Origin: Candidatus Poribacteria bacterium
GTDB lineage: Bacteria; Poribacteria; WGA-4E; PCPOR2b
Reading direction: 5' to 3'
NCBI GenBank assembly: GCA_965208675.1
Contig: OZ242351.1
Location: 4,128,001-4,192,000 of the forward strand
DNA length: 64,000 nt
How positions within the stretch are numbered: position 1 is the first letter of the stretch; each line of letters begins with the position of its first letter. Of this stretch, positions 17,219 to 33,127 are shown in pieces. The position numbers were made by a program, and so were the translations under genes. Under the pieces are notes generated by a model that was not told the DNA's origin, did not search any database, and worked only from the letters and a program-made list of their open reading frames with translations.

Positions 17219-20017
17219 TCATTGGTTTTCCAAATGACTCACATCTATCTTCCAACACTGAATGTTTGAATCACCCTGAGAAAATAAGATTGTTTTGCCG
17301 TTCGGTGCCATAAAGATAGGATTAGCGTTTACCGGTATGCTAAACGAGAACTCCTTGGAAATTGAGCCATCAAGCGAAACACGCTGGAATTTACCGAGAT
17401 ACGCATATGCAAGGTAAGTCTTACCGTCAGGAGACCAACTTAATCGGACACAATTCTTGCGTAGCTTTGTTGATTTTCCGCCATCTAAAGACGCCAGCCA
17501 GGTTTCTCTGTGTATTTCGAACGTCAGTTGCTTTCCATCAGGTGTCCAGCCAATCTGCATCTCATGTTCTGGAGTGTTGGTAATTCGCTTGGGTGCTCCA
17601 CCCGATGCAGAAAGAACGTACAGATCGCCTTCCATTTCAGGATAATGAAATGCTCCCTTCTCCCTCTCCAATCGAAGAAATGCCATACTTTTCCCATCGG
17701 GTGACCAAGCTACTTCTCCGACTACTCCTGGCTCTGTGAGTCGTTTTACGTGACCACTCGAAACAACAACAATACAGAGTTGAACCTGGTTAATGCCCTT
17801 GGCATCAAGAAATGCGATTCGTTGTCCATCGGGCGACCAGCGCGGCTTGCGGACATAGAAATCCCCTTGGATTAACTGTTTGGACCGTCCTCCTGACACT
17901 GGCATGATTTGAAGTGTGGAATTCTCGTAAAGCTTTTCACCTTGAGCAGACATTTTTAACTTTCGCCGTACGAACGCAATCCGCTTGCCATCAGGAGAAA
18001 AGGTGGATTCACCAAGCTCGATTCTCTTCGGGAGTGAAATAGGCACCGGTGTCAACTCGCCGGTTTCTACATTCAGGAGGCCGGGTTTTTGGTTGCCCGA
18101 CGATGGGAGACATAAATGTTTGCCGTCGGCTAGCCATTGTAAGGGTTCAGACTGCCACATTAAACTCGGGTCCAGGCTCATGGTTCGGTATTCACCGTTT
18201 TTGAGACTAAGAGCATAGGTTTTATCATTGAAAGACGTTTCCACCATGATAATTTCTCCTCCGGAAGTCCACCTGATTGGTCTGCCAAACATATCCGAAT
18301 CTGACATAACAGCCTTGAGAAGAATTGGTTTTCCCGAAAAATTTCCTTCCTTATTGACGCGAGAGGCGTAAAACCCTTTATGACTGTTTAAACTTTGGGT
18401 GAAGTTGGAATAATAAGCCATCCACCGTCCATCGGGTGAATATACGAGCGGCTTTAGTGCAGAACCATCTACTACGATCCTTTGCTTATCACCGTCTAAC
18501 GCGTGAATCCACCTGCGGCTACCAACCCCAACGCCTCGTCGCGATAAATAATTAATCCATCTTCCATCTCCCGACCAAATTGGGTTGGTATTCTCTTTGC
18601 CATCGGTCGTAAATGGACGAATCTTCCCCGTAGCGATTGATACGATGAAGATATCTGTGTTTTCACCGTTAACCCTTTCAAATGCGAGTTCCTTCCCGCC
18701 GGGCGACCAACTTAGGCCTTCTGGCCCCCTGTTGGAACCGGTTTCCGCTAGGAAACGAATTTTGCCTCCAGACACGGGAATAAGACATACGTCCATGTCT
18801 TCACCCGTTCCGGGACTCGTCCCAGTCGAAGGACTGTGACGATAAAATGCAATCCACCGTCCGTCCGGAGACCACTTCGGTACATAATAGACCGTTGGAA
18901 TACCCTCATCCACCAAAACCGTCGGTTTAACCGGCATATCTTGCGATGCGGATGTTACGGGCAAAACCAAAAGACCACGTGGAGTTGAAGAAGGCCCCCA
19001 ACTGAAGTAAGCCATTTTTGTTCCATCGGGCGAAAAATCCAGATTTCCATGAGGATTGACACCATCAGGAAGGTATACGCCCGTTAATGATACACCATTT
19101 TTCTGCGAGGATCTGAGTTGTCCATCTCCGGTTAGCAGTTTCCGTCGCGCCGGTTTCTGCCCAAAATCACCATTTTCCCCTTCAGCGCCGAGTATCGCAA
19201 CCCGAGTCGCTTCCACATCTACGGGAAGGTCGCCATCCTCGAAAACCTGTGTGTTCAGAGGCAGAGAGCCGCCGAGCCATTCGCCCAACGGATAAAGCGG
19301 GCTGTGCGGAAGGCTCAAACTCAAAAGCAAAAGAATTACCCCGCCTGCTGCGGATAGCCCCAAAGGCAGCGCGGTCTTGTGGGGTGCGGTTTGAATCTTT
19401 GCGTTACTGATTAACTCTACCACATGGGCGGTGAATCCCGGCTGTAATTTTCTTTCGGCAAAAGCAGTGCGTATCATTGGAATCATCTCCTCACTTAAGG
19501 CAGTTTTCAATTTTGCTCTGGCTCGCACGAGTCGCTGATCGATGGTGTTTGGAGACACTCGCAAAGTTTGGGCAATCTCCTTGCTTTTCATGCCTGCCAT
19601 GTAACGGAGCATTAACACTTGACGGTGCATCTCGGGGAGAGAAGCCAATGCGTCGTGAACCCGTTCATTTTTCAGTTTTTCCGAGTGTGCCTCAACGTCC
19701 ATTCGATGATTCTCGTCTTGCTCGGCAAGGTGCGCCGTGACGACCTGTCTTTTTTGGGCGCGGTGATAATTCTTGCACTGATTCGAAGCAATGGAATAGA
19801 GCCACGGATAGAAGTTGTCCCATCGCCGCAGAGTTGACAGGTTCTTATACGCTTCAAGAAAGACATCCTGAGTTAAATCTTCAGCGTCATGAAACTGTCC
19901 GACCTTCGCGTACACGAGCGCGAAGATGCGCTCTTTGTATTTGTCAACCAACAGGGCAAATGTCTCCGTGTTTCCCGAAAGACATTGATGAACGATATGA
20001 CCATCTCTAGTGTGCAT
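17219..20017 (-). CDS. ECF sigma-70 factor fused to TM helix and TolB-like PD40 beta-propellers (copy 1)
   Basis: sigma2 DAEDLTQDVFLEAY...FYPWLYSIA; sigma4 LPEMHRQVLMLRY...EIA...SPNTIDQRLVRAR; TM LGLSAAGGVILLLLSLSL; about 12 (W/F)SPDG repeats. Confidence 0.9.
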   Translation of the reverse strand: MHTRDGHIVHQCLSGNTETFALLVDKYKERIFALVYAKVGQFHDAEDLTQDVFLEAYKNLSTLRRWDNFYPWLYSIASNQCKNYHRAQKRQVVTAHLAEQDENHRMDVEAHSEKLKNERVHDALASLPEMHRQVLMLRYMAGMKSKEIAQTLRVSPNTIDQRLVRARAKLKTALSEEMIPMIRTAFAERKLQPGFTAHVVELISNAKIQTAPHKTALPLGLSAAGGVILLLLSLSLPHSPLYPLGEWLGGSLPLNTQVFEDGDLPVDVEATRVAILGAEGENGDFGQKPARRKLLTGDGQLRSSQKNGVSLTGVYLPDGVNPHGNLDFSPDGTKMAYFSWGPSSTPRGLLVLPVTSASQDMPVKPTVLVDEGIPTVYYVPKWSPDGRWIAFYRHSPSTGTSPGTGEDMDVCLIPVSGGKIRFLAETGSNRGPEGLSWSPGGKELAFERVNGENTDIFIVSIATGKIRPFTTDGKENTNPIWSGDGRWINYLSRRGVGVGSRRWIHALDGDKQRIVVDGSALKPLVYSPDGRWMAYYSNFTQSLNSHKGFYASRVNKEGNFSGKPILLKAVMSDSDMFGRPIRWTSGGEIIMVETSFNDKTYALSLKNGEYRTMSLDPSLMWQSEPLQWLADGKHLCLPSSGNQKPGLLNVETGELTPVPISLPKRIELGESTFSPDGKRIAFVRRKLKMSAQGEKLYENSTLQIMPVSGGRSKQLIQGDFYVRKPRWSPDGQRIAFLDAKGINQVQLCIVVVSSGHVKRLTEPGVVGEVAWSPDGKSMAFLRLEREKGAFHYPEMEGDLYVLSASGGAPKRITNTPEHEMQIGWTPDGKQLTFEIHRETWLASLDGGKSTKLRKNCVRLSWSPDGKTYLAYAYLGKFQRVSLDGSISKEFSFSIPVNANPIFMAPNGKTILFSQGDSNIQCWKIDVSHLENQ

Positions 20018-20055
20018 TGGCGCTCCCTCGAATGAGATGATTGTTACTGCCTTTA

Positions 20056-20100
20056 TAGTAACCGCTCAACCCCGAATTCTGACATCGGGTTGATTTTTTT
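20056..20100 (-). promoter_or_regulatory. Putative ECF promoter of copy 1
   Basis: A-tract, then TGTCAG-N16-GTTACTA on the - strand; one of five copies of this motif. Confidence 0.65.
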
Positions 20101-20296
20101 GAGGAGAAACGTCGCAACCGCTACAGGGGAATTGAAAGCGTTCCCGCGAATATTTTACTTTGTCTGAATCAGGATTGACAGGATTTTAGGATATTCAGGA
20201 TGTTGCATCCGCTCATACTGAAACTGATTGTGCACAGACGTGAACATTGGGGGACAGGAAATGGGGATGCACATGCAGTGGATGTTTGCCGTGTAT

Positions 20297-20346
20297 AGAA
20301 AAGAAAAAGGCGTCCATCTGCCGTGAAACTGGGGCAAATGGACGCC
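20297..20346 (-). terminator. Intrinsic terminator after copy 2
   Basis: GGCGTCCATTTGCC-loop-GGCAGATGGACGCC followed by TTTTTCTTTTCT. Confidence 0.8.
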
Positions 20347-20399
20347 GTTATTAAACTCTCAAATTATGGGCGTGTCTGTTGTATACTTTGAGGAATCCG

Positions 20400-23321
20400 C
20401 TATTGATTGACGAGATGACTCACATCAATGCTCCAACACGACTTTACCGAATCGACCTGCCTTAGTAGGATTGTTTCGCCGTCGGGAGACATAGAGAGTG
20501 GTCGAGCATTCATCGGAGCACGAGCCGAGAGTTCGGAGGATATCGCGCCATTTGACGATACGCGTTGCAACTTCCCATGCGGTCCGAATGCATGATACGT
20601 TGCCCCATCCGATGACCAGCTCGACGGAATATAATTCCTATGCAACTTCTTCGGTTGCCCGCCGTTAATTGATATAACCCACCAAGCCCCGTCGTTTGTT
20701 TTGTACGTGAGTTGTTTGCCATTGGGCGTCCAATGGATTTCCGATTCCCCTTCGTTGCGAGTGTTGGTAATTTGCCTTGACTCCCCACCGGTTGCGGGTA
20801 CAATGTGGATGTCGTCAGGCGGCGATTTTTTGTACGCCAGTATTGTACCATCGGGCGACCAAGCTGGTTCGCCGAACCGGCCTGAATCTGCCATTAGTAT
20901 CTTCACTTTACCGTCCGATACGGAAACGACGCAAAGTTGCGACTCCGGGCCACTTTGCATCTCAGTTCTTCTCGTTATCCCATTGATGAAAGCGATTGTT
21001 TGACCATCAGGCGACCAGCGTAGATGGGAGGGCCACGATTCGCCATGCGTCAACTGTCTGGGTGTTCCACCTGGCACTGGTATGATGTACAATTGGCGTT
21101 CAGTGTCGGGGTGTTTAACCATAATCACAAATGCGATTTGTTTTTCATCAGGAGAAAGGGTAGATTCGTCAAAATTTATTTCTTTGAAAAATTCAAGAAG
21201 TTGACTGCGAGTAAAACGGTTGGTTTCAATGTCTAAAATCCCGCATCTCGCACCACTGCCAGGCAAGTTCACGCTAGATGGGAAAAACAGACGATTCCCG
21301 CCAGAGAGCCACTGTACACCTATAAGTTGCGGATCTGTAAGCGGAAAAAGCGGAATACTCGTCGGAAAACGCGGAACGTGGTAAATGCTCGTATCAGTAT
21401 TGAGGTAGCGTCGTGCGCCACGTTTTGTCTGGACGTTAAAATAGGCAGCTTCACTGCGGTAGCATAGTGTACCGCTTTTTGTTTTGAGAGCAGCGTAGGT
21501 AACCTTTATGCGATCCTCTTGTAGAATGATGATTTTTCCGCCCGGTGTCCACCGCAAAAGTTTCGGTGCATATTGAAATTTCTCCGGTTCAATTAAAATT
21601 GGATCTCCTGCTAAGTCGCCATGTTCGTTGAAGTGGTCAACAGCAATGCCGGGAAACGAGAAACTGCCGTTCGTAACGGCAATGTTGTTGCGGGCAACCC
21701 ATTTTCCGTTGGGTGAATAAACGAACTCGTCTTGTATGGCAACAACGTTTATCGGTGTTGTCCCACCGCCATCAACAGGTTGTTTCCAGACAGGCTTGCC
21801 GAGATATGTTTCCCGAGATGAAGGGCGTTGCGATAAATAGAAAATCCAGTTTCCATCAGGCGACCACGATGGCGAGGTATTCCCTTTTCCGTCCGTTGTA
21901 AATGGGCGTACTACTCCGGTGTCTAGCGACACGATGCTAATATCCGTATTCTCTCCTGTCCATTTGACAAACGCAATCTCTTTGCTATCAGGTGACCAAC
22001 TGAGTCCACGCGAGTGCTTTTGAGAGTCGGTCCGGGCGAGGAAGCGCATTCTGCCGCCTGCCGCAGGAATAAGATATAAATCAATGTCACTTCCATAACC
22101 TTCCGCCCTCGGATATTGATGTTCCTGACGATAAAAGGCGACCCACTTCCCGTTAGGCGACCACTTAGGTTGAAAATATTGTGTTGTTGCACCCTCTCCT
22201 TGCACTAGAACTGTTTTTTTAGGCGAGACATCGCTTGATGCGTCTACTAAAGGCGACACAATAAGTTGGAACTCATACCCTAAGGATGTAACTCCTCTGC
22301 CGAGGTAAACCATCTTCGTGCCATCGGGCGAAATGTCCATATCCCAAGAAGCATCATTTGGGAGATATATGCCCGTTGTCGTTATTTCCTCATTAGGATT
22401 GTCCATTTCCTCAGACTGGTTGATGGCTGTGGCTGCCTTTAACGGCTCCGGTCTCCGCCCAAAATCGCCATCTTCCCCTTCAGCGCCGAGTATCGCAACC
22501 CGAGTCGCTTCTGCATCTACGGGGAGGTCGCCATCCTCGACAACCTGTGTATTCAGAGGCAGAGAGCCGCCGAGCCATTCGCCCAACGAATAAAGCGGGC
22601 TGTGCGGAAGGCTCAAACTCAAGAGTAGGAGAATTACGCCGCCTGCTGCGGACAGTCCCAAAGGCAGAGCGGTCTTGTGGGGCGCGGTTTGAATCTTTGC
22701 GTTACTGATTAACTCTACCACATGGGCGGTGAATCCCGGCTGTAATTTTCTTTCGGCAAAAGCAGTGCGTATCATTGGAATCATCTCCTCACTTAAGGCA
22801 GTTTTCAATTTTGCTCTGGCTCGCACGAGTCGCTGATCGATGGTATTGGGAGACACCCGTAACGTCTGTGCAATCTCCTTGCTTTTCATGCCAGCCATGT
22901 AACGGAGCATTAACACTTGACGGTGCATCTCAGGGAGAGAAGCCAATGCCTCATGGAGTTGTTCGTCTCTCAATTTTTCCAAATGTGCTTCCATGTCTGG
23001 TCGCTGTGAGACACTCTCATCTTGGTCGGCAAGGTGTGCCGTGTCAACCTTTCTTTTTTGGGCATAGTGAAAATCCTTACATCGGTTTGAAGCAATCGAA
23101 TAGAGCCACGGATAAAAATTGTCCCATCGCCGCAGGGTTGATAGCTTCTTATAGGCGCTGAGAAAGACATCCTGAGTGATATCCTCTGCGTCTTGAAACT
23201 GGCCAACCTTTGCATACACGAGCGCGAAGATGCGCTCCTTGTATTTGTCAACCAACAGGGCAAATGCCTCCGTGTTGCCCGAAAGACATTGATGAACGAT
23301 ATTGCCATCTCCGGTGTGCAT
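20400..23321 (-). CDS. ECF sigma / TM / PD40 propeller fusion (copy 2)
   Basis: Same architecture; sigma4-TM segment almost identical to copy 1; C-terminal CWSIDVSHLVNQ. Confidence 0.9.
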   Translation of the reverse strand: MHTGDGNIVHQCLSGNTEAFALLVDKYKERIFALVYAKVGQFQDAEDITQDVFLSAYKKLSTLRRWDNFYPWLYSIASNRCKDFHYAQKRKVDTAHLADQDESVSQRPDMEAHLEKLRDEQLHEALASLPEMHRQVLMLRYMAGMKSKEIAQTLRVSPNTIDQRLVRARAKLKTALSEEMIPMIRTAFAERKLQPGFTAHVVELISNAKIQTAPHKTALPLGLSAAGGVILLLLSLSLPHSPLYSLGEWLGGSLPLNTQVVEDGDLPVDAEATRVAILGAEGEDGDFGRRPEPLKAATAINQSEEMDNPNEEITTTGIYLPNDASWDMDISPDGTKMVYLGRGVTSLGYEFQLIVSPLVDASSDVSPKKTVLVQGEGATTQYFQPKWSPNGKWVAFYRQEHQYPRAEGYGSDIDLYLIPAAGGRMRFLARTDSQKHSRGLSWSPDSKEIAFVKWTGENTDISIVSLDTGVVRPFTTDGKGNTSPSWSPDGNWIFYLSQRPSSRETYLGKPVWKQPVDGGGTTPINVVAIQDEFVYSPNGKWVARNNIAVTNGSFSFPGIAVDHFNEHGDLAGDPILIEPEKFQYAPKLLRWTPGGKIIILQEDRIKVTYAALKTKSGTLCYRSEAAYFNVQTKRGARRYLNTDTSIYHVPRFPTSIPLFPLTDPQLIGVQWLSGGNRLFFPSSVNLPGSGARCGILDIETNRFTRSQLLEFFKEINFDESTLSPDEKQIAFVIMVKHPDTERQLYIIPVPGGTPRQLTHGESWPSHLRWSPDGQTIAFINGITRRTEMQSGPESQLCVVSVSDGKVKILMADSGRFGEPAWSPDGTILAYKKSPPDDIHIVPATGGESRQITNTRNEGESEIHWTPNGKQLTYKTNDGAWWVISINGGQPKKLHRNYIPSSWSSDGATYHAFGPHGKLQRVSSNGAISSELSARAPMNARPLSMSPDGETILLRQVDSVKSCWSIDVSHLVNQ

Positions 23322-23359
23322 CGGTGTTCCCTCGTATGAGATTGGTGTTACTATCTATA

Positions 23360-23699: not shown

Positions 23700-26539
23700 C
23701 TACTGACTGACTAGATGACTCACATCAATGCTCCAGCACTGTGTTCCTGAATCAATCAGCCGATACAGAATGGTTTCACCGTCGGGCGACATTGAAAGCG
23801 GACGTGCGTCCGCCGGAACGCGAAACGGCAATTCGTCAATTGTCGTGCCGTCGAGAGTTACGCGCTGCAGTTCGCCGTTTCGTCCAATGGCGAGATAAGA
23901 CCTTCCATCCGATGACCAACTAGATGGGATATAATTTCTTCGCATTGGCTTCGGTTTCCCACCGTCGATTGACATGCCCCACGCTTGTCCGCCTATCTCG
24001 AACGTCAACCGCTTTCCATCGGGAGTCCACGAGAGTCTCCCGAAGGGTGTCCAAGACAGCAATATTTCCCCTTCGGGTGGACTATTGGGTGGAGCGGCTA
24101 TTCGCTTGGATTTTCCGCCCGTTGCCTGAACAAGATAGATGTCGACCTCTGTCTCATCGAAATCCAAATCTAAGACCTTTCCCTTACCCTTCAAGCGGAG
24201 ATACGCGAGCATTGTTCCATCGGGCGACCAAGCTGCTCCCATGCACCGTTCGGTATCTATGAATGTTTTCACCTGACCATCTGATACAGAAGCGACGCAG
24301 AGTTTTGACTTGAAACCTACTGAGGCAGCGAATTTCGCGTTGATGAACGCGATTTTTTGACCGTCGGGCGACCAGCGCGGATTCATACCATAAAACTCAG
24401 TTTGTGTCACCTTTTTGGATGTCCCGCCACCCACCGGCATGATGTGAAGATGCGCACTTACGTCAGGGGATATTCCCGCTAGTGCCGGATCCGTCTCCTT
24501 GGGTTGCAAGTGCACGTATGCCGCCCATTTTTCATCGGGCGAAAGGCTAGATAAACCGAAGAACGTCTCATCTGGAAGTTCTATGGGTAGCTCCGTAAAC
24601 TGACCCGTTTCGATGTCGAAAAATCCGGGGCGTCGGTTTCTGTCAGACACAAATAACAGACGATTCCCGTCGGATAACCACTGTGCATTTTTAAACCCAA
24701 ACTTCGAATCTGAATTCACGTGGCGTTTTTCACCGCCTTTTATGCGGAAGGCATAGGTCTTCTCAATATAATCCTCTTGCAGGACGATGATTTTCCCATT
24801 CGGTGTCCAGCGCAACGGTTTTGCCCCCACCTGGAGTCTCGCCGCTTTGAGTAGAATTGGCTTCCCTACCAGCTCGCCATGTTCACTGACGCGCGCTGCT
24901 ATGAAACCGCTCTGTCCATCGGGTAGGTATTTTGTATAGGCAATCCACTTTCCATCAGGTGAATGAATTGGAGGGCTAAGACCAACACGCTCGTTTACTA
25001 CTGCTTTTCCTCCAGCAACAGGCTGTCTCCACACGCGGCGGCTATCAATCCAGAGCCCTCGTTTTGATGAATAGAAGATCCATTCTCCATCAGGCGACCA
25101 AGATGGGTTAGTGTTCTCTTTCCCATCCGTTGTGAAAGGACGTGCTGCTCCGCTGTTGAGCGCGACTATCCAAATATCCGTTTTTTTCCCTTTCATCTTG
25201 ACATACGCGAGTTCCTTGCTGTCAGGGGACCAACTTAGTCTGTCATATTTTTCGGAATCGGTATGTGCAAGGAAGCGCATCTTACCTCCCGAAGCAGGAA
25301 TCAGACACACATCATAATGTCCGTAGTCTTTAAGGCCGTATTCGAGACGATAAAAGGCGATTAACTTTCCATTAGGTGACCATTTAGGTTGTACAGGCTG
25401 TACGCTCTCCGAACCATCTACATAGATAATTTTCCGCTCTACCGGTGTATTGGAGTCTAATTCGGTTAGTGGATAAACTGCAATCGACGGCTGTCGTAGA
25501 GCATGCTCCGCCGGAAACGGCACATAGGCGAATTGTGTGCCGTCAGGCGAAATATCAATGTCCCAGCCAAGATCCAAATCATCGGGTACGTGTATGGCGG
25601 TTACCGTTATTTCCTCATTGGGCTGGTCAGTTTCAGCCGACCGTACAATGGCGCTGGGCATCTTATGTGATTTCGGTCTCCGTCCAAAATCGCCATCTTC
25701 CCCTTCAGCACCGAGTATAGCGACCCGAGTCGCTTGCGCATTTACGGGGAGGTCGCCATCTTCGACAACATGTGTTTTTAGAGGCAGAGAGCCGCCCAAC
25801 CATTCGCCAAACGGATAAAGCGGGCTGTGCGGAAGGCTCACACTTAAGAGTAGGAGGATTATTCCACCTACAGCGGATAACCCCAAAGGCAGCGCGGTCT
25901 TGTGGGGCGCCGTTTGAATTTTGGTGTCGCTGATAAACTCTACCACGCGGGCGGTAAATCCCGGCTGTAATCTTCTTTCGGCAAAAGCAGTGCGTATCAT
26001 TGGAATCATCTCCTCGCTTAGGACAGTTTTCAATTTTGCTCTGGCTCGCACGAGCCGCTGATCGATGGTGTTTGGAGACACCCGCAATGATTCGGCGATC
26101 TCTTTACTTTTCATGCCAGCCATATAGCGGAGCATTAACACTTGACGGTGCATCTCAGGGAGAGAAGCCAATGCCTCATGAAGTTGTTCGACTCTCACCG
26201 CTTCCGAATCTGCATCAACAGCCGCTTGGTGATTGAGATTCCGAGCGAGAACGTTCATGGTTTCAACCTGCTCCTTTTGGGCGCGGTAAAAATTCTTGCA
26301 CCTGTTGGCGGCAATCGAATAGAGCCACGGATAGAAATTGTCCCATCGCCGCAGTGTCGACAGTTTCTTATAGGCGTTGAGGAAGATATCTTGTGTTAAG
26401 TCCTCAGCGTCTTGAAATTGCCCGACCTTCGCGTACACGAGTGCAAAGATACGCTCCTTGTATTTGTCAACCAACAGGGCGAATGCCTCCGTGTTGCCCG
26501 AAAGACATTGATGAACGATATACCGTCTCTGGTGTGCAT
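23700..26539 (-). pseudogene. ECF sigma / TM / PD40 propeller fusion (copy 3) with a 1-bp deletion at codon 7
   Basis: ATG at 26539 reads ATG CAC ACC AGA GAC GGT -AT ATC GTT CAT, versus GGT CAT ATC GTT CAT in copy 1. The rest is open from 26474 to 23700. Confidence 0.8.
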
Positions 26540-26815: not shown

Positions 26816-26868
26816 GTTATTGAATGCCCAAAATCTGGGCGCGTCTGTTGTGTACTTTGAGAGGCCGG

Positions 26869-29673
26869 TTATTGATTGACGAGATGACTCACATCAATGC
26901 TCCAGCACTGTGTTCCTAAATCAGTCCGCCGAAACAGAATCGTGTCGCCGTCGGGCGACATTGAGAGTGGGCGAGCATCCGTCGGAACACGAAACGGGAA
27001 TTCGTCGATTGTCGTGCCGTCGAGAGATACTCGCAGCAATTCGCCGTTTCGTCCAATGGCGAGATAAGACATGCCGTCTGATGACCAACTCGACGGGATA
27101 TAGCCTCTTGGCAACTTCTTTGCTTCTCCGCCATTGATTGATGCAACCCATACCTCTTCTAGATTCACCGCTCCTTGAATCATCAAATTGAAGATTAGCT
27201 GCTTTCCATCGGGTGTCCAAGAAATGTTGATTTCCTTTCCAGGAGTGTTGGTTATCTGCTTGGCGTCTCCGCCCGCTGCCGGTACAACGTAGATATCACC
27301 TTCCATGTCTCCTTTTAAGTTGAGATAGGCGATTGTGATTCCATCCGGAGACCACGCAGGGCTCATGCACCGTTCCGAATCTGTGAGTTTTTTCATTTGA
27401 CCGTCGGACGCGGATACGACGCAGAGCTGCGACTTGTAACTCTCTGGCGAGCCAATCATCGCGTTGGTGAATGCGATGTTTTGGCCGTCCGGCGACCAGC
27501 GAAGTTCGTTCGCATAAAGCAGGCCGCTGGTCAATTGACGGATTTTTCCACCACTAATTGGTGCAATGTGGATATGAATGTTTCCTTTGGGCAAGCCGCT
27601 GGTTTGCTCTACATTTTTGAGATCGAACAGTGTGAACGCAACTTCCCTCTCGTTCGGCGATAGGGTAAGGGCACGTAGCAACATCCCCTTCGGAAGTTCA
27701 ATGGGGAGTTCGGTATATTGACTTGTTTCGATGTCGAAGAGTCCGGGGCGTATGTCTAGATCTTTTAAAGACGCCAGTAACAGACGTTTACCGTCGGATA
27801 GCCACTGTGCGCCTCCTTCAAACAATAGCGCCGGATTGGAACTCGTGCGGCGTTGTTCCCCGTTTTTTACGTTGAGGGCATAGGTCATCTCTCTGCGATC
27901 TTCTTGCACCACGATTATTTTTGCGTCCTGTCCCCACCGCAACGGTTTCGCGCTCGCCCCGAGTCCCATCGCTTTGAGCAGCATCGGTTCGCCCGACAAC
28001 TCACCCTGTTCGTTGACGCGACGTGTCAAAAAACCGAATTTAGCCTCGGGCAGATAGACGCCCGTGTAGACAACCCACTTGCCATCTGGTGAATAGATAG
28101 GAGACTGAACGATGGTGACATAATCATTTTCTATTACCGTCGCTTTACCGCCCTGAACCGGCTGTTTCCGCACGCGGTGGCTATCGTCCGAGGTGGATCG
28201 TCGCGATAAATAAGAAATCCACTTACCGTCCGGCGACCAGGATGGTTGAATATTCTCCTTTCCATCTGTTGTGAAGGGGCGAACCTCTTGGGTGTCGAGC
28301 GATACAATCCAAATGTCTGCTATCCTCTCCTTCCAGTTAATCCACTTGACAAACGCAAGATTCAAACTGTCAGGTGACCAACTCAATCCGCCAGACTGTT
28401 CAGAATTGGATTGCGGAAGCACGCGCATCTCGTCCCCTGACGCAGGAATAATGCAAACTTCATAGTGCTCACTATCTTCTTGATTGAGTTCGCTACGATA
28501 AAAAGCAATCCATCCTCCATCAGGCGACCATCGAGGTCGCGCTAACCGTACGTTGTTTGAACCATCGAGAAAGATGTCTTTCCGTTCTGCCGGTGCACTG
28601 GGGGCTAATCCTGTAAAAGGATAGAGTGCGAGAACCGGCTTCCATTGAGGCACATAGACAAATTGTGCACCATCGGGGGAGATGTCAATATCCCAAAGGT
28701 TAGAGCCCAAGTCATCGGGCATGGATATGGCGGATACCGTTATTTTCTCATTGGGGTTATCCATTTCATCTGGCTGCCCCACGGCCGCCTGCGTCTTGAG
28801 CGGCTCCGGTTTCTGCCCAAAATCGCCGTCTTTCCCTTCAGCACCGAGTATGGCTACCCGAGTCGCTTCTACATCTACGGGGAGCTCTCCGTCTTCGACA
28901 ACCTGTGTATTCAGCGGCAGAGAGCCGCCGAGCCATTCGCCCAACGGATAAAGCGGGCTGTGCGGCAGGCTCAAACTCAAGAGCAAGAGAATTACCCCAC
29001 CTACTGCGGACAGCCCCAAAGGCAACGCAGTCTTGTGGGGCGCGGTTTGAATCTTTGCGTCGCTGATTAATTCGACCACACGGGCGGTAAATCCCGGCTG
29101 TAATCTTCTTTCGGCAAAAGCAGTGCGTATCATTGGAATCATCTCCTCACTTAAGGCAGTTTTCAATTTTGCTCTGGCTCGCATGAGCCGCTGGTTTATA
29201 GCATTCGGAGACACCCGCAACGTTTCTGCAATCTCCTTGCTTTTCATGCCTGCCATGTAACGGAGCACTAACACTTGACGGTACATCTCTGGGAGGGAAG
29301 CCAATGCGTCGTGGACTCGTTCATTTCTCAGTTTTTCCGAGTGCGCATCCATGTCTGCCTGGTGATTCTCATCCGAGTCAGCAAGATACGCAGCGCCAAC
29401 TAGTCCTTTCTGATCTCGGTGAAAATTCCTGCATCGGTTTACGGCAATCGAATAGAGCCACGGATAGAAATTGTCCCATCGACGCAGGGTTGATAACTTC
29501 TTGTACGCTTTGAGAAAGACATCTTGGGTTAAGTCCTCTGCGTCCTGAAACTGCCCAACCTTTGCGTACACGAGCGCGAAAATGCGCTCTTTATATTTAT
29601 CAACCAACAGGGCAAATGCCTCCGTGTTACCCGAAAGACATTGATGAACGATTTGACCATCTGTGGTGTACAT
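26869..29673 (-). CDS. ECF sigma / TM / PD40 propeller fusion (copy 4)
   Basis: Same architecture; sigma4.2 SPNAINQRLMRAR. Confidence 0.9.
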   Translation of the reverse strand: MYTTDGQIVHQCLSGNTEAFALLVDKYKERIFALVYAKVGQFQDAEDLTQDVFLKAYKKLSTLRRWDNFYPWLYSIAVNRCRNFHRDQKGLVGAAYLADSDENHQADMDAHSEKLRNERVHDALASLPEMYRQVLVLRYMAGMKSKEIAETLRVSPNAINQRLMRARAKLKTALSEEMIPMIRTAFAERRLQPGFTARVVELISDAKIQTAPHKTALPLGLSAVGGVILLLLSLSLPHSPLYPLGEWLGGSLPLNTQVVEDGELPVDVEATRVAILGAEGKDGDFGQKPEPLKTQAAVGQPDEMDNPNEKITVSAISMPDDLGSNLWDIDISPDGAQFVYVPQWKPVLALYPFTGLAPSAPAERKDIFLDGSNNVRLARPRWSPDGGWIAFYRSELNQEDSEHYEVCIIPASGDEMRVLPQSNSEQSGGLSWSPDSLNLAFVKWINWKERIADIWIVSLDTQEVRPFTTDGKENIQPSWSPDGKWISYLSRRSTSDDSHRVRKQPVQGGKATVIENDYVTIVQSPIYSPDGKWVVYTGVYLPEAKFGFLTRRVNEQGELSGEPMLLKAMGLGASAKPLRWGQDAKIIVVQEDRREMTYALNVKNGEQRRTSSNPALLFEGGAQWLSDGKRLLLASLKDLDIRPGLFDIETSQYTELPIELPKGMLLRALTLSPNEREVAFTLFDLKNVEQTSGLPKGNIHIHIAPISGGKIRQLTSGLLYANELRWSPDGQNIAFTNAMIGSPESYKSQLCVVSASDGQMKKLTDSERCMSPAWSPDGITIAYLNLKGDMEGDIYVVPAAGGDAKQITNTPGKEINISWTPDGKQLIFNLMIQGAVNLEEVWVASINGGEAKKLPRGYIPSSWSSDGMSYLAIGRNGELLRVSLDGTTIDEFPFRVPTDARPLSMSPDGDTILFRRTDLGTQCWSIDVSHLVNQ

Positions 29674-29711
29674 GGGCGTCCTCTCGCAAAAGATGGTTGT
29701 TTTTATCTATA

Positions 29712-29757
29712 TAGAAACTGCCCACCCCCGAATTATTACACTTGGGGAATTTTTTTT
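29712..29757 (-). promoter_or_regulatory. Putative ECF promoter of copy 4
   Basis: A-tract, then TGTAAT-N16-GTTTCTA. Confidence 0.65.
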
Positions 29758-29917
29758 ATGAGAATAGCTGCAACTACTTAAGCAGTATTGAAGGTTTACC
29801 TGTGAATATTGTACTCTGTCTGAACCAGGATTTACAGGATTTTAGGACTTGCAGGATGTTGCATCGGCTCGCAGGCAATTGAAAATGCCACTAGTGAATA
29901 TATTGAGGGACAGAGAG

Positions 29918-30163
29918 TATAGTCGTTTTAGTTCAGATTTACACAAGGAGGAATGGACTATTTGAAAATCGAGGCTAGGAAGCCTCTCCTACACACCAAT
30001 GAATAAATGTATAATTCATGACTTGCGCAAATTGAAAAGAAAAGATGTGTTTTTTTGCTGAAAAAGTCGATATTGCGGTGTTTTTAACCCCCTAAATCCC
30101 CCTTATCAGGGGGACTTAAAGAGGAAGTGCGTAAGTCTTACAATTTTTAGTCCCATGGCTGTA
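29918..30163. mobile_element. MITE-like repeat (copy 2 of the 8080 family) with a second element nested at ~30018-30140
   Basis: Outer part matches 8080-8197. The inner part has ends atgacttgcgca / tgcgtaagtctta, like the 4331 element, and a cccccttatcaggggg hairpin. Confidence 0.6.
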
Positions 30164-30212
30164 GAAAAGAAAAAGGCGTCCATCTGCCGTGAAACTGGGG
30201 CAAATAGACGCC
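30163..30212 (-). terminator. Intrinsic terminator after copy 5
   Basis: Same hairpin plus T-tract. Confidence 0.8.
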
Positions 30213-30265
30213 GTTATTGAATGCCCAAAATGTGGGCGGGTTTGAAGTGAACTTTGAGTGACGAG

Positions 30266-33127
30266 CTATTGACTGACTAGATGACTCACATCAATGCTCC
30301 AGCACTGTGTTTCTGAATCAATCAGCCGATACAAAATGGTTTCACCGTTGGGCGATATTGAGAGCGGACGTGCATCCACCGGAACACGAAACGGTAATTC
30401 GTCAATTTTCGTGCCGTCGAGAGATACCCGCTGCAATTCGCCGTTTCGTCCAAATGCGAGATAAGATGTTCCATCCGATGACCAACTCGACGGGATAAAA
30501 TTTCTTTGCATTGGCTTCGGTTCCCCACCATTGATTGAAATAACCCACGCTTGCCCGCTTATCTCGAAGGTCAACCGTTTTCCGTCGGGTGTCCAACAAA
30601 GACTCCCATCAGGTGTCCAAGGCAGGAGTATCTCTCCTTCGGGTGGACTATCGGGTGGAGCACTGATTCGCTTGGATTCTCCGCCCGTTGCCGGAACAAG
30701 ATAGATGTCAACCTCTGTCTCATCGAAATCCAAATCTAAGACCTGTCTCTTACCCTTCAAGCGGAGGAACGCGAGCATCGTTCCATCTGGCGACCAAGCT
30801 GCTCCTGAGCACCGTTCGGTATCTGTGAATGTTTTCACCTGACCATCTGATACAGAAGCGACGCAGAGTTTTGACTCGAAACCAACTGATGCTGCGAGAT
30901 TAGCGTTGATAAACGCGATTTTTTTACCGTCGGGCGACCAGCGGGGGTTAATCCAAATAAACTCGGTTTGTGCCATCTGTTTGGAAGTTCCACCTGTTAC
31001 GGGCATGATGAGAAGATGCGCACTTACTTGGGGTACTCCGTCGACAAGTTTATGGGGCGTTTTGCGATGAATCTGCACATATGCAACCCACTTTTCATCG
31101 GGCGAAAGGGTGGCCCCGCTGAGCCATGTTCCCTCTGGGAGTTCGATGGGTAGCTCGGTGAATCGACCAGTTTCGATGTCCAAAAAACCGGGGCGCCGCT
31201 CTTTGCTAGAAACTAGAAAAAGCCGATTCCCGTCTGATTGCCACTGTGCGCCTTCAAACCAAAAGTCGGGATTGGAACTTACACGTCGTTGTTCGCCATT
31301 CTTTATATTGAGTGCATAGGTCATTTCTGTGTAGGCTTCTTGCAGTACGATTAGTCTTCCGTCTGGCGTCCACCGCAACGGTTTTGCGCCCACTTGGAGT
31401 CTCGCCGCTTTGAGGAAAATTGGTTCGCCTGTTAGCTCACCTTGTTCGTTGACTCGCGATGCAATAAAACCGCTTTTTCCATCGGGTAAGTAGTTCGTGT
31501 AGGCAACCCACTTTCCGTCGGGTGAGTGAATGGGTGGGTAGATGAGATGAAACCCTTCATTTACTGTTGCTTCACCATCCCGCACAGGCTGCCGCCATAC
31601 GCGGAGGCTATTTATCAAGAGGCCTCGTTTTGATGAATAGGCAATCCATTCACCATCAGGCGACCATGAGGGATCGGTGTTTTCTTTTCCATCCGTCGTG
31701 AATGGACGCACTGCGCCTGTTTCGAGCGAGACGATGTAAATGTCCGATTTCTTTCCTTTCGACCTAACAAACGCTAGTTCTTTGCTATCCGGAGACCAAC
31801 TTAACCAACCTGGGTGGTTGGTAGAATTGGTGTGCGCCAGGAAGCGTAATGCCCCGCCTGATGCGGAAACCAGATACACGTCCATATCTTTTCCATACGG
31901 ACCAATAGTCTCTCCCACACCGGGAACGTATGCAGTGTAAACATGACGATAAAATGCAATCCACTGACCGTCTGGAGACCATTTCGGCTGATAGTAATTC
32001 GCGATATCCTCCTCCAATATAACCGAGGGTTTAGGCGCCGCATTAGTTGTAGCCTCGACTAGAGGCTGAATCTGAAGCTGAGTCAAGTTGCTTGAAGATG
32101 TAAAATCGCGACCAACATATACCATTTTCGTTCCATCAGGTGAAAAATCAATATCCCACGACATGTCCAAATCGTCGGGCACATGAACTCTCGTGATCGT
32201 ACTTTTATTTTCGTTCATTTCCTCAGATTGGCCAAAGGCATCGGGCGCTTCAAACGGCTCCCGTTTCTGCCCAAACTCGCCGTCATTCCCTTCAGGACCG
32301 AGTATGGTAACCCTAGTTACTTCAGCATCTACGAGGAGGTCGCCATCTTTGACAACCTGTGATTTGGAAGGCAGCGGCCCACCGAACCAGTCGCGAAGCG
32401 GATGAAGCGGGTTTTGTGGCAGGCTCAAACTTAAGACTAGGAGAATTAACCCACCTGCAGCAGATAGCCCCACGGGTAACCCGGTCTTGTGGGGCGCCGT
32501 TTGAATCTTCGCCTCTCTGATAAACTCCACTACGCGAGCCGTAAATCCTGGTGATAATTTACGGTCGGCAAGGGCGGTGGGCATCATTGAAACTAGATCT
32601 TCACTCAGCACAGTTTTGAGCTTCGCTCTAGCTCGCATCAGCCGCTGATTGATGGTATTCGGAGACACCCGCAGCGTCTCGGCAATCTCTTTGCTCTTTA
32701 GCCCAGCCATGTAACGGAGCACTAAAACTTGACGGTGCATCTCAGGGAGGGAAGCCAGTGCTTCATGGATTCGTTGGTTTCTCAGGTTTTTTGCGTGCGC
32801 GTCCATATCTGCTCGATGGCTGTCGGATTGGTCGGCAAGGTACGCCGCATCAATCTGTCTGTATTGGGCACGATGGAAATCCTTGCATCGGTTCACAGCG
32901 CTTGAATGAAGCCACGCATAGAAATTGTCCCATCGTTTCAGCGTGGAGAGTTTTTTGTAGGCGTTGAAAAACACATCTTGAGTGAGGTCCTCTGCATCTT
33001 GAAACTGACCGACTTTGGCATACACGAGCGCGAAAATTCGAACTTTATATTTGTCAACTAACTCGGCGAATGCCTCCGGGTTGCCCGAAAGACATTCATA
33101 AACGATTTGCCTGTCACTCGTGTGCAT
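30266..33127 (-). CDS. ECF sigma / TM / PD40 propeller fusion (copy 5)
   Basis: Start MHTSDRQIV at 33127 by alignment with the paralogs; sigma4.2 SPNTINQRLMRAR; PD40 repeats. Confidence 0.9.
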   Translation of the reverse strand: MHTSDRQIVYECLSGNPEAFAELVDKYKVRIFALVYAKVGQFQDAEDLTQDVFFNAYKKLSTLKRWDNFYAWLHSSAVNRCKDFHRAQYRQIDAAYLADQSDSHRADMDAHAKNLRNQRIHEALASLPEMHRQVLVLRYMAGLKSKEIAETLRVSPNTINQRLMRARAKLKTVLSEDLVSMMPTALADRKLSPGFTARVVEFIREAKIQTAPHKTGLPVGLSAAGGLILLVLSLSLPQNPLHPLRDWFGGPLPSKSQVVKDGDLLVDAEVTRVTILGPEGNDGEFGQKREPFEAPDAFGQSEEMNENKSTITRVHVPDDLDMSWDIDFSPDGTKMVYVGRDFTSSSNLTQLQIQPLVEATTNAAPKPSVILEEDIANYYQPKWSPDGQWIAFYRHVYTAYVPGVGETIGPYGKDMDVYLVSASGGALRFLAHTNSTNHPGWLSWSPDSKELAFVRSKGKKSDIYIVSLETGAVRPFTTDGKENTDPSWSPDGEWIAYSSKRGLLINSLRVWRQPVRDGEATVNEGFHLIYPPIHSPDGKWVAYTNYLPDGKSGFIASRVNEQGELTGEPIFLKAARLQVGAKPLRWTPDGRLIVLQEAYTEMTYALNIKNGEQRRVSSNPDFWFEGAQWQSDGNRLFLVSSKERRPGFLDIETGRFTELPIELPEGTWLSGATLSPDEKWVAYVQIHRKTPHKLVDGVPQVSAHLLIMPVTGGTSKQMAQTEFIWINPRWSPDGKKIAFINANLAASVGFESKLCVASVSDGQVKTFTDTERCSGAAWSPDGTMLAFLRLKGKRQVLDLDFDETEVDIYLVPATGGESKRISAPPDSPPEGEILLPWTPDGSLCWTPDGKRLTFEISGQAWVISINGGEPKPMQRNFIPSSWSSDGTSYLAFGRNGELQRVSLDGTKIDELPFRVPVDARPLSISPNGETILYRLIDSETQCWSIDVSHLVSQ

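What the first reader, a model, noticed from the sequence alone, without database searches (positions are those of the whole stretch)
17219..33127. Tandem array of five membrane-anchored ECF sigma factors with diversified extracytoplasmic beta-propeller sensors
Seen: five head-to-tail genes, each sigma2-sigma4 / linker / single TM helix / ~600 aa of TolB-like PD40 repeats / conserved CW(S/K)IDVSHL end. The sigma-TM part is highly conserved and the propellers are divergent. Copies 1-4 have their own promoter motif, each copy is followed by the conserved terminator (split in copy 1), and no anti-sigma gene is nearby. Known: ECFs with TM and WD40-type C-terminal extensions are described in Planctomycetes. 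Inferred: a one-component transmembrane receptor bank in which variable propellers bind different ligands and the sigma domain is released, probably by regulated proteolysis. Many inputs would converge on few promoter types. I do not know of such a cassette array being characterised in Poribacteria-like bacteria.
Basis: partly seen in the sequence, partly recalled or inferred. Interest (0 to 1): 0.88.

Follow-up and report, generated by a model that had tools for sequence, protein, structure and literature searches.

The report
Tandem membrane-anchored sigma factor sensor genes
Five neighbouring genes in a sponge-associated Poribacteria genome each fuse a gene-switching sigma factor to a membrane anchor and an outward-facing double propeller sensor, and relatives reshuffle these units by recombination.

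Summary
Five head-to-tail minus-strand genes (17219-33127) each encode ECF sigma2-sigma4, a 40-aa linker, one TM helix, a conserved juxtamembrane stretch and about 620 aa of PD40 repeats modelled as two beta-propellers. Corrections: copy 3 has a 1-bp deletion after codon 6, and the terminator behind copy 1 is a remnant.

New here:
- The family was found only in Poribacteria. Arrays of 2-4 copies occur in six other genomes.
- The sigma-TM module and the propellers have conflicting histories (AU p 2e-7 to 3e-70). A relative's single gene is a copy-3-like 5' part joined to a copy-1-like propeller.
- One promoter-like motif precedes 24 of 27 family genes. The other three lie behind lipoprotein genes that carry it.
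- 24 of the 44 ECF-like ORFs in this genome are sigma-TM-sensor fusions.

Most likely these are one-component transmembrane ECFs released by regulated proteolysis onto one shared promoter type. That mechanism is inferred, not shown. The architecture is a catalogued kind (ECF57/ECF01-Gob, ECF52/53, IutY), so this is a new variant. The ECF group could not be assigned.

The parts
17219..20017 (-). copy 1: ECF sigma2-sigma4 / linker / TM / double PD40 propeller, 932 aa
   Evidence: Its propeller is orthologous to the single copy of relative G021 (83% aa).
20400..23321 (-). copy 2, 973 aa, same architecture, with two insertions in the second propeller region
23700..26538 (-). copy 3. The paralogous ATG is at 26538, but a 1-bp deletion after codon 6 breaks the frame. 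The open frame of 924 aa starts at TTG 26474 and lacks the first 22 aa.
   Evidence: No contig of 4 DNA runs from one sample showed an indel anywhere in 17000-33400.
26869..29673 (-). copy 4, 934 aa
30266..33127 (-). copy 5, 953 aa from the aligned ATG. It is the most divergent sigma-TM module and has no motif of its own.
20298..20346 (-). intrinsic terminator behind copy 2 (14-bp stem, 10-nt loop, U-run). The same element lies at 23598-23646, 26767-26815 and 30164-30212 behind copies 3, 4 and 5.
   Evidence: (z -4.1, -5.7, -3.8, -4.4)
17153..17176 (-). remnant (5' arm only) of the terminator behind copy 1; marks the edge of the duplicated unit
   Evidence: z +0.54
20051..20099 (-). promoter-like motif AAAAAA-N8-CGA-TGT(A/C)A(T/G)AATTCG-N14-CTATA(T/A)AG, ending about 40 nt before the ATG of copy 1. 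The same motif lies at 23355-23403 (copy 2), 26575-26622 (copy 3) and 29707-29756 (copy 4).
   Evidence: nhmmer E 1e-11 to 1e-14. It is conserved in two Poribacteria families although the flanks differ.
37545..37590 (-). fifth copy of the motif, 534 nt upstream of the WD40 gene that heads the gene run WD40 - P0126 - P0125 - copy 5
   Evidence: E 1.1e-6
33256..33855 (-). P0125, a 199-aa predicted lipoprotein with no family hit. A homolog is conserved directly upstream of the first array member in relatives G010 and G031.
33884..34642 (-). P0126, a 252-aa secreted protein with a weak 3-keto-disaccharide-hydrolase/DUF1080-like hit. It is conserved upstream of P0125-like genes in G010 and G031. 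The best sigma-70-like site of the region (10 of 12) lies at 34685-34713.
   Evidence: (E 0.0048, below the cut-off)
34786..37011 (-). P0006, a secreted 13-repeat WD40 protein with a T9SS type A sorting domain. The homologous position holds a sigma-TM-WD40 fusion in G038 and a sigma-less TM-WD40 in G021.
29918..30140 (-). two short dispersed repeats inserted in the copy 5 - copy 4 spacer (not part of the system)

Best explanation
The locus is an array of five independently transcribed genes, four intact and one frameshifted at its 5' end. They encode single-pass, membrane-anchored ECF sigma factors of a subfamily found only in Poribacteria.

Each protein has these parts:
- a cytoplasmic sigma2-sigma4 core;
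- a 40-aa two-helix linker;
- a Gly/Pro-containing TM helix;
- a conserved, probably disordered juxtamembrane stretch;
- an extracytoplasmic double PD40 (TolB-like) beta-propeller.

Shown here: the anatomy, the topology by the positive-inside rule, the absence of a recognisable separate anti-sigma gene, and the near identity of the promoter-reading parts of all five sigmas. Also shown: one family-specific promoter-like motif in front of the family's genes and of a conserved lipoprotein operon, propeller types older than the split of two Poribacteria families, and re-assortment of the sigma-TM module and its flanks by recombination.

Inferred: each protein is a one-component transmembrane signal transducer. 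Binding of a protein, peptide or glycan ligand to the propeller, or damage to it, would start site-1 cleavage outside the membrane. An RseP-type site-2 cut in the TM helix would follow, releasing the sigma core. The freed sigma would then drive the shared motif promoters: its own gene, its paralogs and the P0126/P0125/WD40 genes. Several different inputs would thus feed one cross-activating output.
For: Anatomy:
- Pfam Sigma70_r2, Sigma70_r4_2 and PD40 in 5 of 5 copies.
- NCBIfam TIGR02937 (ECF superfamily) scores 92-101 bits against a cut-off of 42.9.
- One TM segment in 5 of 5, with K/R 2-3 on the N side and 0-1 on the C side.
- AF2 model: residues 310-932 are mostly pLDDT 75-90 and all-beta. 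The best PDB fold matches are double-propeller proteins (2ymu, 1k32, 1nr0; E 6e-16 to 2e-13).
- No anti-sigma Pfam family in the 5 proteins at E<=0.01 or in 8 flanking ORFs.

One output:
- sigma2 is 85.6% and sigma4 87.9% identical among the copies, and the sigma4 recognition helix is almost invariant.
- In the 4.89-Mb genome the motif model hits only c1-c4 and the site upstream of the WD40 gene, plus one weak site at E 0.006.
- The motif precedes 24 of 27 family genes examined: G000 4 of 5, relatives 9 of 11 and 11 of 11. The model was built from 13 of these, so the 11 and 3 of the 4 operon sites are the independent ones (the G031 site was not among the 13).
- The 3 genes without it are first in their arrays, behind P0126/P0125-like genes that carry the motif upstream.

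Machinery: an RseP-like M50 protease is encoded in the genome.

Linker: complex prediction of sigma 1-176 against linker 177-216 gave weak support. The score was 0.59 and the best control 0.00. That mark was reached by 58 of 80 solved complexes and 2 of 110 mismatched pairs. At 0.60 or under, only 7 of those 80 solved complexes reached it, as did both mismatches that passed. The runs agree in at least 96% of contacts and the partner's pLDDT is at least 71. The two chains are pieces of one polypeptide, which favours a pass.

Function retained: dN/dS is 0.11-0.25 among paralogs and 0.28-0.37 for propellers between orthologs.

Precedent: IutY, a fused sigma/anti-sigma, is released by Prc and RseP. 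ECF48/52/53 are expected to work likewise (PMC8999054, passages read).
Against: - No expression data: no RNA run was listed.
- No cleavage site, ligand or protease partner is identified.
- The linker is too short for a class I anti-sigma domain and has no family hit. Its predicted packing has only weak support.
- The motif has an AT-rich CTATATAG box and no CGT-type -10, so a housekeeping or other sigma could read it. It is also part of the duplicated unit, so part of its conservation is inherited.
- One of five copies is frameshifted here. Of the 11 copies in the 7 relatives read in detail (G005, G010, G017, G019, G021, G031, G038), 3 are broken, so some decay is going on.
- RseP-type proteases are universal (14 of 14 control genomes), so their presence is not discriminating.
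- dS between paralogous propellers is saturated (about 1.8), so those dN/dS values are rough.
Confidence: 0.6

Rival explanations
1. The sigma factor works while still tethered, or is switched by a conformational or protein-interaction signal passed through the membrane, without proteolytic release. This would resemble ToxR/CadC-type membrane-bound regulators, or the protein-interaction model proposed for ECF57.
For: The closest non-sigma look-alikes of the sensor part are wHTH (PF00486)-PD40 proteins. By recall, not by any search here, I take these to be ToxR/CadC-like membrane-bound regulators that act without release. PMC8999054 (passage read) reports a protein-interaction or conformational mechanism suggested for ECF57, which carries WD40-like repeats. 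Two cysteines (C12 invariant, C81 nearly invariant) are conserved in the sigma core of 66 family members.
Against: A sigma must join RNA polymerase and travel with the open complex, and a 40-aa tether makes that awkward. The one fused transmembrane ECF that the review cites as experimentally characterised (IutY) needs proteolysis. Both conserved cysteines lie in sigma2, not one each in sigma2 and sigma4. The TM helix has the Gly-Gly and Pro residues typical of site-2 protease substrates; that rule is recalled, not tested here.
Confidence: 0.12
2. The propellers are not ligand receptors but bait or status reporters. The sigma would be freed whenever the exposed propeller is degraded or unfolds, for example through envelope stress or through host or competitor proteases. 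The array would then widen the range of attacks sensed rather than the range of ligands bound.
For: The architecture is the same as in the main model. PD40/DPPIV_N-type propellers are typical substrate-gating domains of peptidases and of TolB. The juxtamembrane stretch is conserved and of low model confidence (pLDDT below 50 for residues 206-308), which would suit a protease entry site.
Against: Propeller types are kept distinct and under purifying selection across two Poribacteria families. That fits specific partners better than generic bait. Nothing here tests it directly.
Confidence: 0.15
3. The array is mainly a by-product of unequal recombination at a duplication-prone site. Only one or two copies would be functional and the rest would be decaying.
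For: Copy 3 is frameshifted. Of 11 copies in the 7 relatives read in detail, 3 are split: G005 by a frameshift in the TM region, G010 by a frameshift near residue 318, and G031 by an in-frame TGA at residue 257. Copy number at the syntenic site varies from 1 to 5 within one genus. In G021 the neighbouring fusion has lost its sigma domain.
Against: Four of five copies are intact over more than 930 codons, with dN/dS 0.11-0.25. Each keeps its motif, ribosome-binding site and terminator. The same propeller types persist in a different family. Some breaks in closed long-read genomes could be sequencing errors, although no contig disagreed here.
Confidence: 0.08

Closest known systems
ECF sigma factors with WD40-like C-terminal extensions of Planctomycetes (ECF57; ECF01-Gob of the older scheme)
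   Same: An ECF core fused to a long C-terminal extension of beta-propeller repeats, with no separate anti-sigma factor and several paralogs per genome. ECF57 averages 5.3 copies per planctomycetal genome (PMC7826278, passage). WD40-like repeats are reported for ECF57 (PMC8999054). PD40 is what Pfam itself describes as 'WD40-like Beta Propeller Repeat'.
   Different: The phylum is Poribacteria. Group membership could not be tested because no ECF-group HMMs were available and the paper's supplements are closed. The two conserved cysteines here both lie in sigma2. A protein-interaction mechanism was proposed for ECF57, whereas a single TM helix here puts the propellers outside the cell. That ECF01-Gob has a TM helix before its WD40 part is my recollection of Jogler et al. 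2012, which is not held.
IutY of Pseudomonas putida (ECF243), a fused sigma/anti-sigma factor
   Same: A single polypeptide with an N-terminal ECF sigma, one TM helix and a periplasmic domain. It is activated by Prc and RseP proteolysis, and the truncated sigma is constitutively active (PMC8999054). It is the best experimental model for how this family may work.
   Different: IutY carries a FecR-type anti-sigma domain and receives its signal from a TonB-dependent transducer. Here there is no FecR or other anti-sigma family hit, only a 40-aa linker. The outer part is a double propeller and no transducer gene is nearby.
ECF48/ECF52/ECF53 of Actinobacteria (e.g. SCO4117)
   Same: An ECF fused to a transmembrane, anti-sigma-like C-terminal extension with an extracytoplasmic sensory domain. 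Proteolytic activation is expected (PMC8999054).
   Different: Those groups have a zinc-finger (ZAS-like) domain, one or two TM helices and, in SCO4117, a carbohydrate-binding domain. No zf-HC2 hit and no such domain were found here.
wHTH-PD40 regulators annotated by JGI as 'Tol biopolymer transport system component/DNA-binding winged helix-turn-helix'
   Same: A DNA-targeting domain fused to TolB-like PD40 repeats. These were the best non-family hits to the propeller part (P0112-P0124, 24-26% identity over 52-66% of the query). That these proteins are membrane-spanning one-component regulators is my assumption; no TM helix was checked in them.
   Different: The output domain is an OmpR/ToxR-type wHTH, not a sigma factor. 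They are analogues in design, not members of the same family.
TolB (Tol-Pal system)
   Same: The PD40 repeat type. TolB structures are among the sequence matches to the propellers (E about 1e-9).
   Different: TIGR02800 scores 116-141 bits against a cut-off of 343. There is no TolB N-terminal domain. There are two propellers instead of one, and the protein is anchored and fused to a sigma.

Membership tests
ECF (group 4) sigma-70 family | sigma2 and sigma4 domains only, matching the ECF superfamily model | tested here: met
   Pfam Sigma70_r2, Sigma70_r4_2 and Sigma70_ECF in 5 of 5 copies. TIGR02937 scores 92-101 bits against a cut-off of 42.9 in the 3 of 3 copies scanned. The best PDB sequence matches are ECF sigmas (8z6g, 6in7, 5wuq, 1or7).
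A named ECF subfamily in NCBIfam (RpoE, SigW, Sig-70_gvs1, etc.) | score above the subfamily or equivalog cut-off | tested here: not met
   All specific models fall below their cut-offs, e.g. TIGR02989 98 bits against 124.6 and TIGR02939 96 bits against 236.
ECF57 / ECF01-Gob | placement in the group by ECF-group HMM or tree | not testable with these tools
   No ECF Hub HMMs or reference sequences were available. Supplements of PMC7826278 are closed.
ECF57 / ECF01-Gob | C-terminal extension rich in WD40-like repeats | tested here: met
   PD40 ('WD40-like Beta Propeller Repeat') E 1e-26 to 1e-41 in 5 of 5 copies; double-propeller model.
ECF57 | two conserved cysteines placed to link sigma2 and sigma4 (PMC8999054) | tested here: not met
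   C12 is invariant and C81 at least 90% conserved in 66 sequences, but both lie in sigma2. No conserved cysteine lies in sigma4.
IutY-type fused sigma/anti-sigma (ECF243) | FecR-type anti-sigma domain between the sigma and the TM helix | tested here: not met
   No FecR or other anti-sigma Pfam family at E<=0.01 in any of the 5 copies. The linker is only 40 aa.
IutY-type fused sigma/anti-sigma (ECF243) | activation by site-1 and RseP proteolysis | not testable with these tools
   Only the presence of an RseP-like gene could be shown.
ECF52/53-type | zinc-finger (ZAS) anti-sigma domain in the extension | tested here: not met
   No zf-HC2 or RskA hit. No H-x3-C-x2-C motif is visible in the linker in the alignment.
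TolB | equivalog score, TolB N-terminal domain and a single six-bladed propeller | tested here: not met
   TIGR02800 scores 116-141 bits against a cut-off of 343. About 620 aa of beta structure match double propellers.

The most novel reading that the evidence does not exclude
The promoter, sigma-TM-juxtamembrane module and terminator form a conserved recombination handle. Through it, Poribacteria strains gain, lose and re-assort ancient propeller sensor cassettes by unequal crossing-over and gene conversion. All cassettes feed one shared, mutually activating promoter type. The result would be a strain-variable, OR-gated receptor bank for host- or environment-derived ligands. It would also be part of a genome-wide habit in which most ECFs are one-component sigma-TM-sensor fusions.
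Probability: 0.3. Interest if true: 0.7.

Novelty: new variant of a known kind. Interest (0 to 1): 0.5.

Why it matters
ECF sigma factors normally need a separate anti-sigma partner. Fused transmembrane forms are catalogued, but according to the review read here (PMC8999054) only IutY has been characterised experimentally.

This Poribacteria genome uses the fused form for more than half of its ECF-like ORFs (24 of 44). The array offers a natural experiment: one output module combined with several old, distinct propeller inputs, with recombinants visible among close relatives. If the shared motif is the sigma-dependent promoter, the family is a compact, orthogonal, single-gene transmembrane sensor design. 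That would interest signalling researchers and synthetic biologists. It is also a lead to what uncultured sponge symbionts sense.

Without experiments it remains a well-described new variant of a predicted class.

Tried and rejected
- **ECF group assignment:** no ECF-group HMMs were available. NCBIfam gave only the superfamily. The protein atlas search on residues 1-300 returned generic ECF clusters and added nothing.
- **Expression:** The look-up of sequencing runs listed no RNA holder. This is a blank and is not used as evidence.
- **Read laying:** contigs of 4 DNA runs from one sample, possibly the sample the genome came from, showed no other letters and no indels over 17000-33400. All 30 bins had depth. 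The listed pieces do not include the copy-3 frameshift site, so this only weakly argues that the 1-bp deletion is real. One contig per run joined 24380 to 30927 (homologous places in copies 3 and 5) with a side of only 20-22 letters. That is below the 30-letter reliability mark, and I read it as an assembly crossing between paralogs.
- **Promoter/terminator scan:** promoter-like hits matched chance (22 found, 21.1 expected). The scan missed the long-loop terminators, which were found by alignment and folding instead.
- **Hairpin in the motif:** a hairpin reading (CCCGA...TCGGG) was dropped because the pairing is not kept in the second family.
- **Programmed frameshift or read-through:** rejected for the split copies in relatives. 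The three breaks are of different kinds and at different places.
- **Leader of the WD40 gene:** the 534-nt leader was tested as a decayed sigma module. blastx found nothing beyond the signal-peptide junction, and blastn found only the 54-nt motif region.
- **P0125 and P0126 as anti-sigma factors:** rejected. Both have signal or lipoprotein leaders and no anti-sigma hit.
- **Gene-wide positive selection on propellers:** not seen.
- **AU tests:** the genus grouping was defined beforehand. The two propeller-type groupings were named after seeing the tree, so their p-values are descriptive.
- **Limits of the genome searches:** The genome search scored only 14-15 candidates per genome, so copy numbers in relatives are lower bounds. 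The peptide patterns are family-specific, so that scan cannot show absence in other phyla.
- **Closed or missing sources:** Jogler et al. 2012 (PMC3497475) is not held. Supplements of PMC7826278, which hold the ECF group descriptions, could not be seen and may already describe a matching group.
Full report
**1. Is it there?**

Yes. The window (G000:C1:4128001-4192000 of a closed 4.89-Mb genome) carries five large minus-strand ORFs at 17219-20017, 20400-23321, 23700-26474, 26869-29673 and 30266-33154. They are called c1 to c5 here.

- Their translations align over their whole length. Identity to c1 is 53-58%.
- Pfam finds Sigma70_r2, Sigma70_r4_2, Sigma70_ECF and PD40 repeats in all five. It also gives weaker DPPIV_N-type propeller hits.
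- A single hydrophobic segment (LPLGLSAAGGVILLLLSLSLP) follows sigma4 by about 32 residues in all five.
- All five end in CW(S/K)IDVSHL.
- Amino-acid identity by region:

| Region | Identity |
|---|---|
| sigma2 | 85.6% |
| sigma2-sigma4 linker | 44.4% |
| sigma4 | 87.9% |
| cytoplasmic linker | 82.5% |
| TM helix | 86.2% |
| juxtamembrane stretch | 75.2% |
| variable spacer | 35.5% |
| propeller 1 | 47.9% |
| propeller 2 | 51.4% |
| last 42 residues | 67.6% |

Two corrections apply.
- In c3 the paralogous ATG (26538) is followed after six codons by a 1-bp deletion (GGT-ATATCG against GGTCATATCG). Only a form starting at TTG 26474 and lacking the first 22 residues is open.
- Behind c1 only the 5' arm of the terminator is left.

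**2. Flanking elements**

Behind c2, c3, c4 and c5 lies a hairpin with a 14-bp stem and a 10-nt loop, followed by UUUUUCUUUUC. Folding z-scores are -4.1, -5.7, -3.8 and -4.4. The c1 remnant does not fold (z +0.54).

A stretch of about 190 nt upstream of c1-c4 is conserved. I compared it with the upstream regions of family genes from seven relatives in two Poribacteria families. That reduces the conservation to one core: AAAAAA-N8-CGA-TGT(A/C)A(T/G)AATTCG-N14-CTATA(T/A)AG. The core ends about 40 nt before the ATG, and a GAGGGA-type ribosome site lies in between.

A profile of the motif gave these results.
- In the whole genome it hits only the four sites before c1-c4 (E 1e-11 to 1e-14), a fifth site at window 37545-37590 (E 1e-6) and one weak site elsewhere (E 0.006).
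- It precedes 4 of 5 family genes in G000, 9 of 11 in seven relatives and 11 of 11 in five further genomes. That is 24 of 27 in all.
- The profile was built from 13 of these sites. The 11 sites are the independent test.

The three genes without the motif (c5, G010a, G031b) are each first in their array.
- Each lies directly behind homologs of the secreted protein P0126 and the lipoprotein P0125.
- Those homologs carry the motif upstream: L016 2326 in G010, L015 14496 in G031 and window 37545 here.
- In G063 a P0125-like gene has its own copy of the motif.

The motif is therefore a family-specific cis element, most simply a promoter. Read as TGTAAT-N18/19-TCTATA it resembles RpoE-type ECF promoters (GGAAC-N-TCAAA; recalled, not tested). 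Its AT-rich box would also suit another sigma.

A second, distal CTGTCA-N18-TACAAT box is conserved only within the genus. The best sigma-70-like site of the region (10 of 12) lies just upstream of P0126.

**3. What the proteins are**

- NCBIfam places the core in the ECF superfamily only. TIGR02937 scores 92-101 bits against a cut-off of 42.9, and all subfamily models are below their cut-offs.
- The nearest solved sigmas are RpoE/AlgU/SigW-like.
- K/R counts of 2-3 before and 0-1 after the TM helix give an N-in, C-out topology.
- An AF2 model built on 66 family sequences has a mean pLDDT of 69.6. Residues 206-308 are below 50, and residues 310-932 are mostly 75-90 and all-beta.
- Foldseek aligns 650-750 columns to double-propeller proteins: 2ymu, tricorn 1k32 and Aip1 1nr0.
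- No anti-sigma family is found in the proteins or in 8 flanking ORFs.
- The neighbours are secreted proteins: CarboxypepD_reg plus C-type lectin, a lipoprotein, a weak DUF1080-like protein, and a WD40 protein with a T9SS sorting domain.
- Complex prediction of sigma 1-176 against the linker 177-216 gave weak support, with a score of 0.59 and a best control of 0.00. The full calibration counts are in the For line. The chains are two pieces of one polypeptide, which favours a pass. I take it only as a hint that the two-helix linker packs on the sigma core.

**4. Distribution**

- About 100 full-length relatives with the same domain list exist in the large protein collection. Three of them are named for an organism (P0049, P0062, P0093), and all three read 'Candidatus Poribacteria bacterium'. 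P0046 and P0065 carry only JGI's 'ECF subfamily' product name.
- All 15 full-length loci from species-representative genomes carry the Poribacteria label.
- In 61 genomes of the phylum, the whole protein matched at E<=1e-100 in 8, which belong to two genera.
- In 159 genomes of the order, the sigma-TM module matched at E<=1e-60 in 24, with 0 of 112 in family f3. It matched closely (E<=1e-126) in 14, and there is also a broken copy in G009.
- Tandem arrays occur in G067 (4 copies), G063 (3), G010 (3), G031 (2), G038 (2, one with a WD40 sensor) and G064 (2). The five copies here are the most seen. These counts are lower bounds, because only 14-15 candidates per genome were scored.

**5. Evolution**

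*Synonymous divergence among the five copies is uneven.*

| Region | dS |
|---|---|
| sigma | 1.08 |
| linker and TM | 0.61 |
| juxtamembrane stretch | 0.35 |
| propellers | about 1.8 (saturated) |

*Trees of the two parts conflict.*
- Sigma-TM modules group by genus (support 93/92).
- Propellers group across families: c1 and G021 with G010b and G031a, and c2 with G019 and G017 (support 100/100).

*AU tests reject the alternative groupings.*
- Genus monophyly is rejected on the propeller data (p 2e-7).
- The propeller groupings are rejected on the module data (p 3e-54 and 3e-70). These two groups were named after seeing the tree.

*Sliding windows show the recombination directly.*
- The single gene of G021 is 92-97% identical to c3 from -133 to +450.
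- It is 94-98% identical to c1 from +890 to +2000.
- G038a is c2-like in its 5' part and c3/c4-like further on.

*Copy number and decay at the syntenic site.*
- At the site between DUF123 and RDD/SpoIIM, copy number varies from 1 to 5 within the genus.
- Broken copies are frequent: c3 here, and 3 of the 11 copies in the 7 relatives read in detail.
- The neighbouring WD40 gene is a sigma-TM-WD40 fusion in G038, a sigma-less TM-WD40 in G021 and a signal-peptide WD40 here.

*Selection is purifying throughout.* dN/dS is 0.11-0.25 among paralogs. Between orthologs it is 0.28-0.37 for propellers and 0.04-0.22 for the module.

The propeller types are therefore old and maintained. The promoter-sigma-TM module is homogenised and serves as the substrate of unequal recombination.

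**6. The wider genome**

A profile of the sigma core finds 44 ORFs. Of these, 29 are 345 aa or longer, and 24 of the 29 have one TM segment 30-40 aa after sigma4.

Ten of the long ones were scanned. Their outer parts are WD40 propellers, Sortilin/BNR, CarboxypepD_reg arrays (with AhpC/TSA or a C-type lectin) and a Peptidase_M16-like domain. One has nothing recognisable. Several sit in clusters (2755226-2779196, 1537227-1551663). Fused, single-pass ECFs are thus the main ECF format of this organism.

**7. Mechanism and rivals**

The best-supported reading is a one-component transmembrane ECF released by regulated proteolysis.
- The one experimentally characterised fused transmembrane ECF, IutY, works this way through Prc and RseP. 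ECF48/52/53 are expected to do the same (PMC8999054, passages).
- An RseP-like gene is present, although such genes are universal.
- The TM helix contains Gly-Gly and Pro residues.
- The near-identical sigma2 and sigma4 segments and the single motif imply convergence on one promoter type, with cross-activation of the paralogs.

None of these steps is shown. The rivals, listed with odds in their own section, are signalling without release, bait-type sensing of proteolytic attack, and an array that is largely decaying.

**8. Comparison and novelty**

[quoted passage not shown] ECF57 of Planctomycetes carries WD40-like repeats (PMC8999054). ECF01-Gob is listed among the extension groups (PMC5766207 and PMC4937300). 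The architecture is therefore a known, mostly unstudied kind.

Searches for ECF and sigma with Poribacteria (2 unrelated papers) and for Poribacteria with WD40 and sigma (3 papers, listings only) found no description of this family.

New here are:
- the phylum;
- the PD40 double-propeller subfamily with its own motif;
- the recurrent tandem arrays;
- the demonstrated module and cassette recombination;
- the dominance of fused ECFs in the genome.

I rate it a new variant of a known kind, with interest 0.5.

Noticed in passing
window 26515-26538 (-): Copy 3 has a 1-bp deletion after codon 6 relative to its four paralogs. Only an N-terminally shortened form from TTG 26474 is open. Contigs of 4 DNA runs from one sample showed no indel in the region.
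   Followed up: partly
window 34786-37590 (-); L014 9063-11645; L013 9991-12342: The secreted WD40 protein with a T9SS sorting domain has the family's promoter-like motif 534 nt upstream. At the same syntenic place G038 has an intact sigma-TM-WD40 fusion, and G021 has a TM-WD40 protein that kept the linker-TM-juxtamembrane part but lost the sigma domain.
   Followed up: partly
window 29918-30140 (-): The copy 5 - copy 4 spacer holds two short dispersed repeats of about 100 nt, with roughly 30 and 10 copies in the genome. Contig word depth in that bin (5,400-13,900 across the four runs) is several hundred times that of the neighbouring bins.
   Followed up: partly
G000 genome, e.g. C1:2755226-2779196, 1537227-1551663, 4112472-4115330: 24 of the 44 ECF-like ORFs are sigma-TM-sensor fusions with varied outer domains (WD40, Sortilin/BNR, CarboxypepD_reg, C-type lectin, AhpC/TSA, M16-like). 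Several sit in further clusters. One lies only 13 kb before the window.
   Followed up: partly
L018 5527-8371; L016 12157-15052; L015 4680-7553: Family copies in relatives G005, G010 and G031 are split. The breaks are a frameshift in the TM region, a frameshift near residue 318, and an in-frame TGA at residue 257. All three lie near the border between the conserved module and the propellers.
   Followed up: partly
G000:C1:2941364-2941406 (-): A weak extra copy of the motif and its leader (E 0.006) is followed by an IS3-like transposase ORF and a fragment similar to P0126. This suggests a disrupted second P0126-type operon.
   Followed up: no
window 15314-16822 (-): The gene just downstream of the array encodes a secreted CarboxypepD_reg plus C-type lectin protein. 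This is the same domain pair as the outer part of another sigma-TM fusion in the genome (L028).
   Followed up: no
window 13542-14396 (+) and 14421-14999 (+): An aminoglycoside 3-N-acetyltransferase family gene (PF02522, E 3e-90) and a DUF123 gene flank the array. DUF123 and RDD/SpoIIM mark the conserved borders of the variable site in the genus.
   Followed up: no
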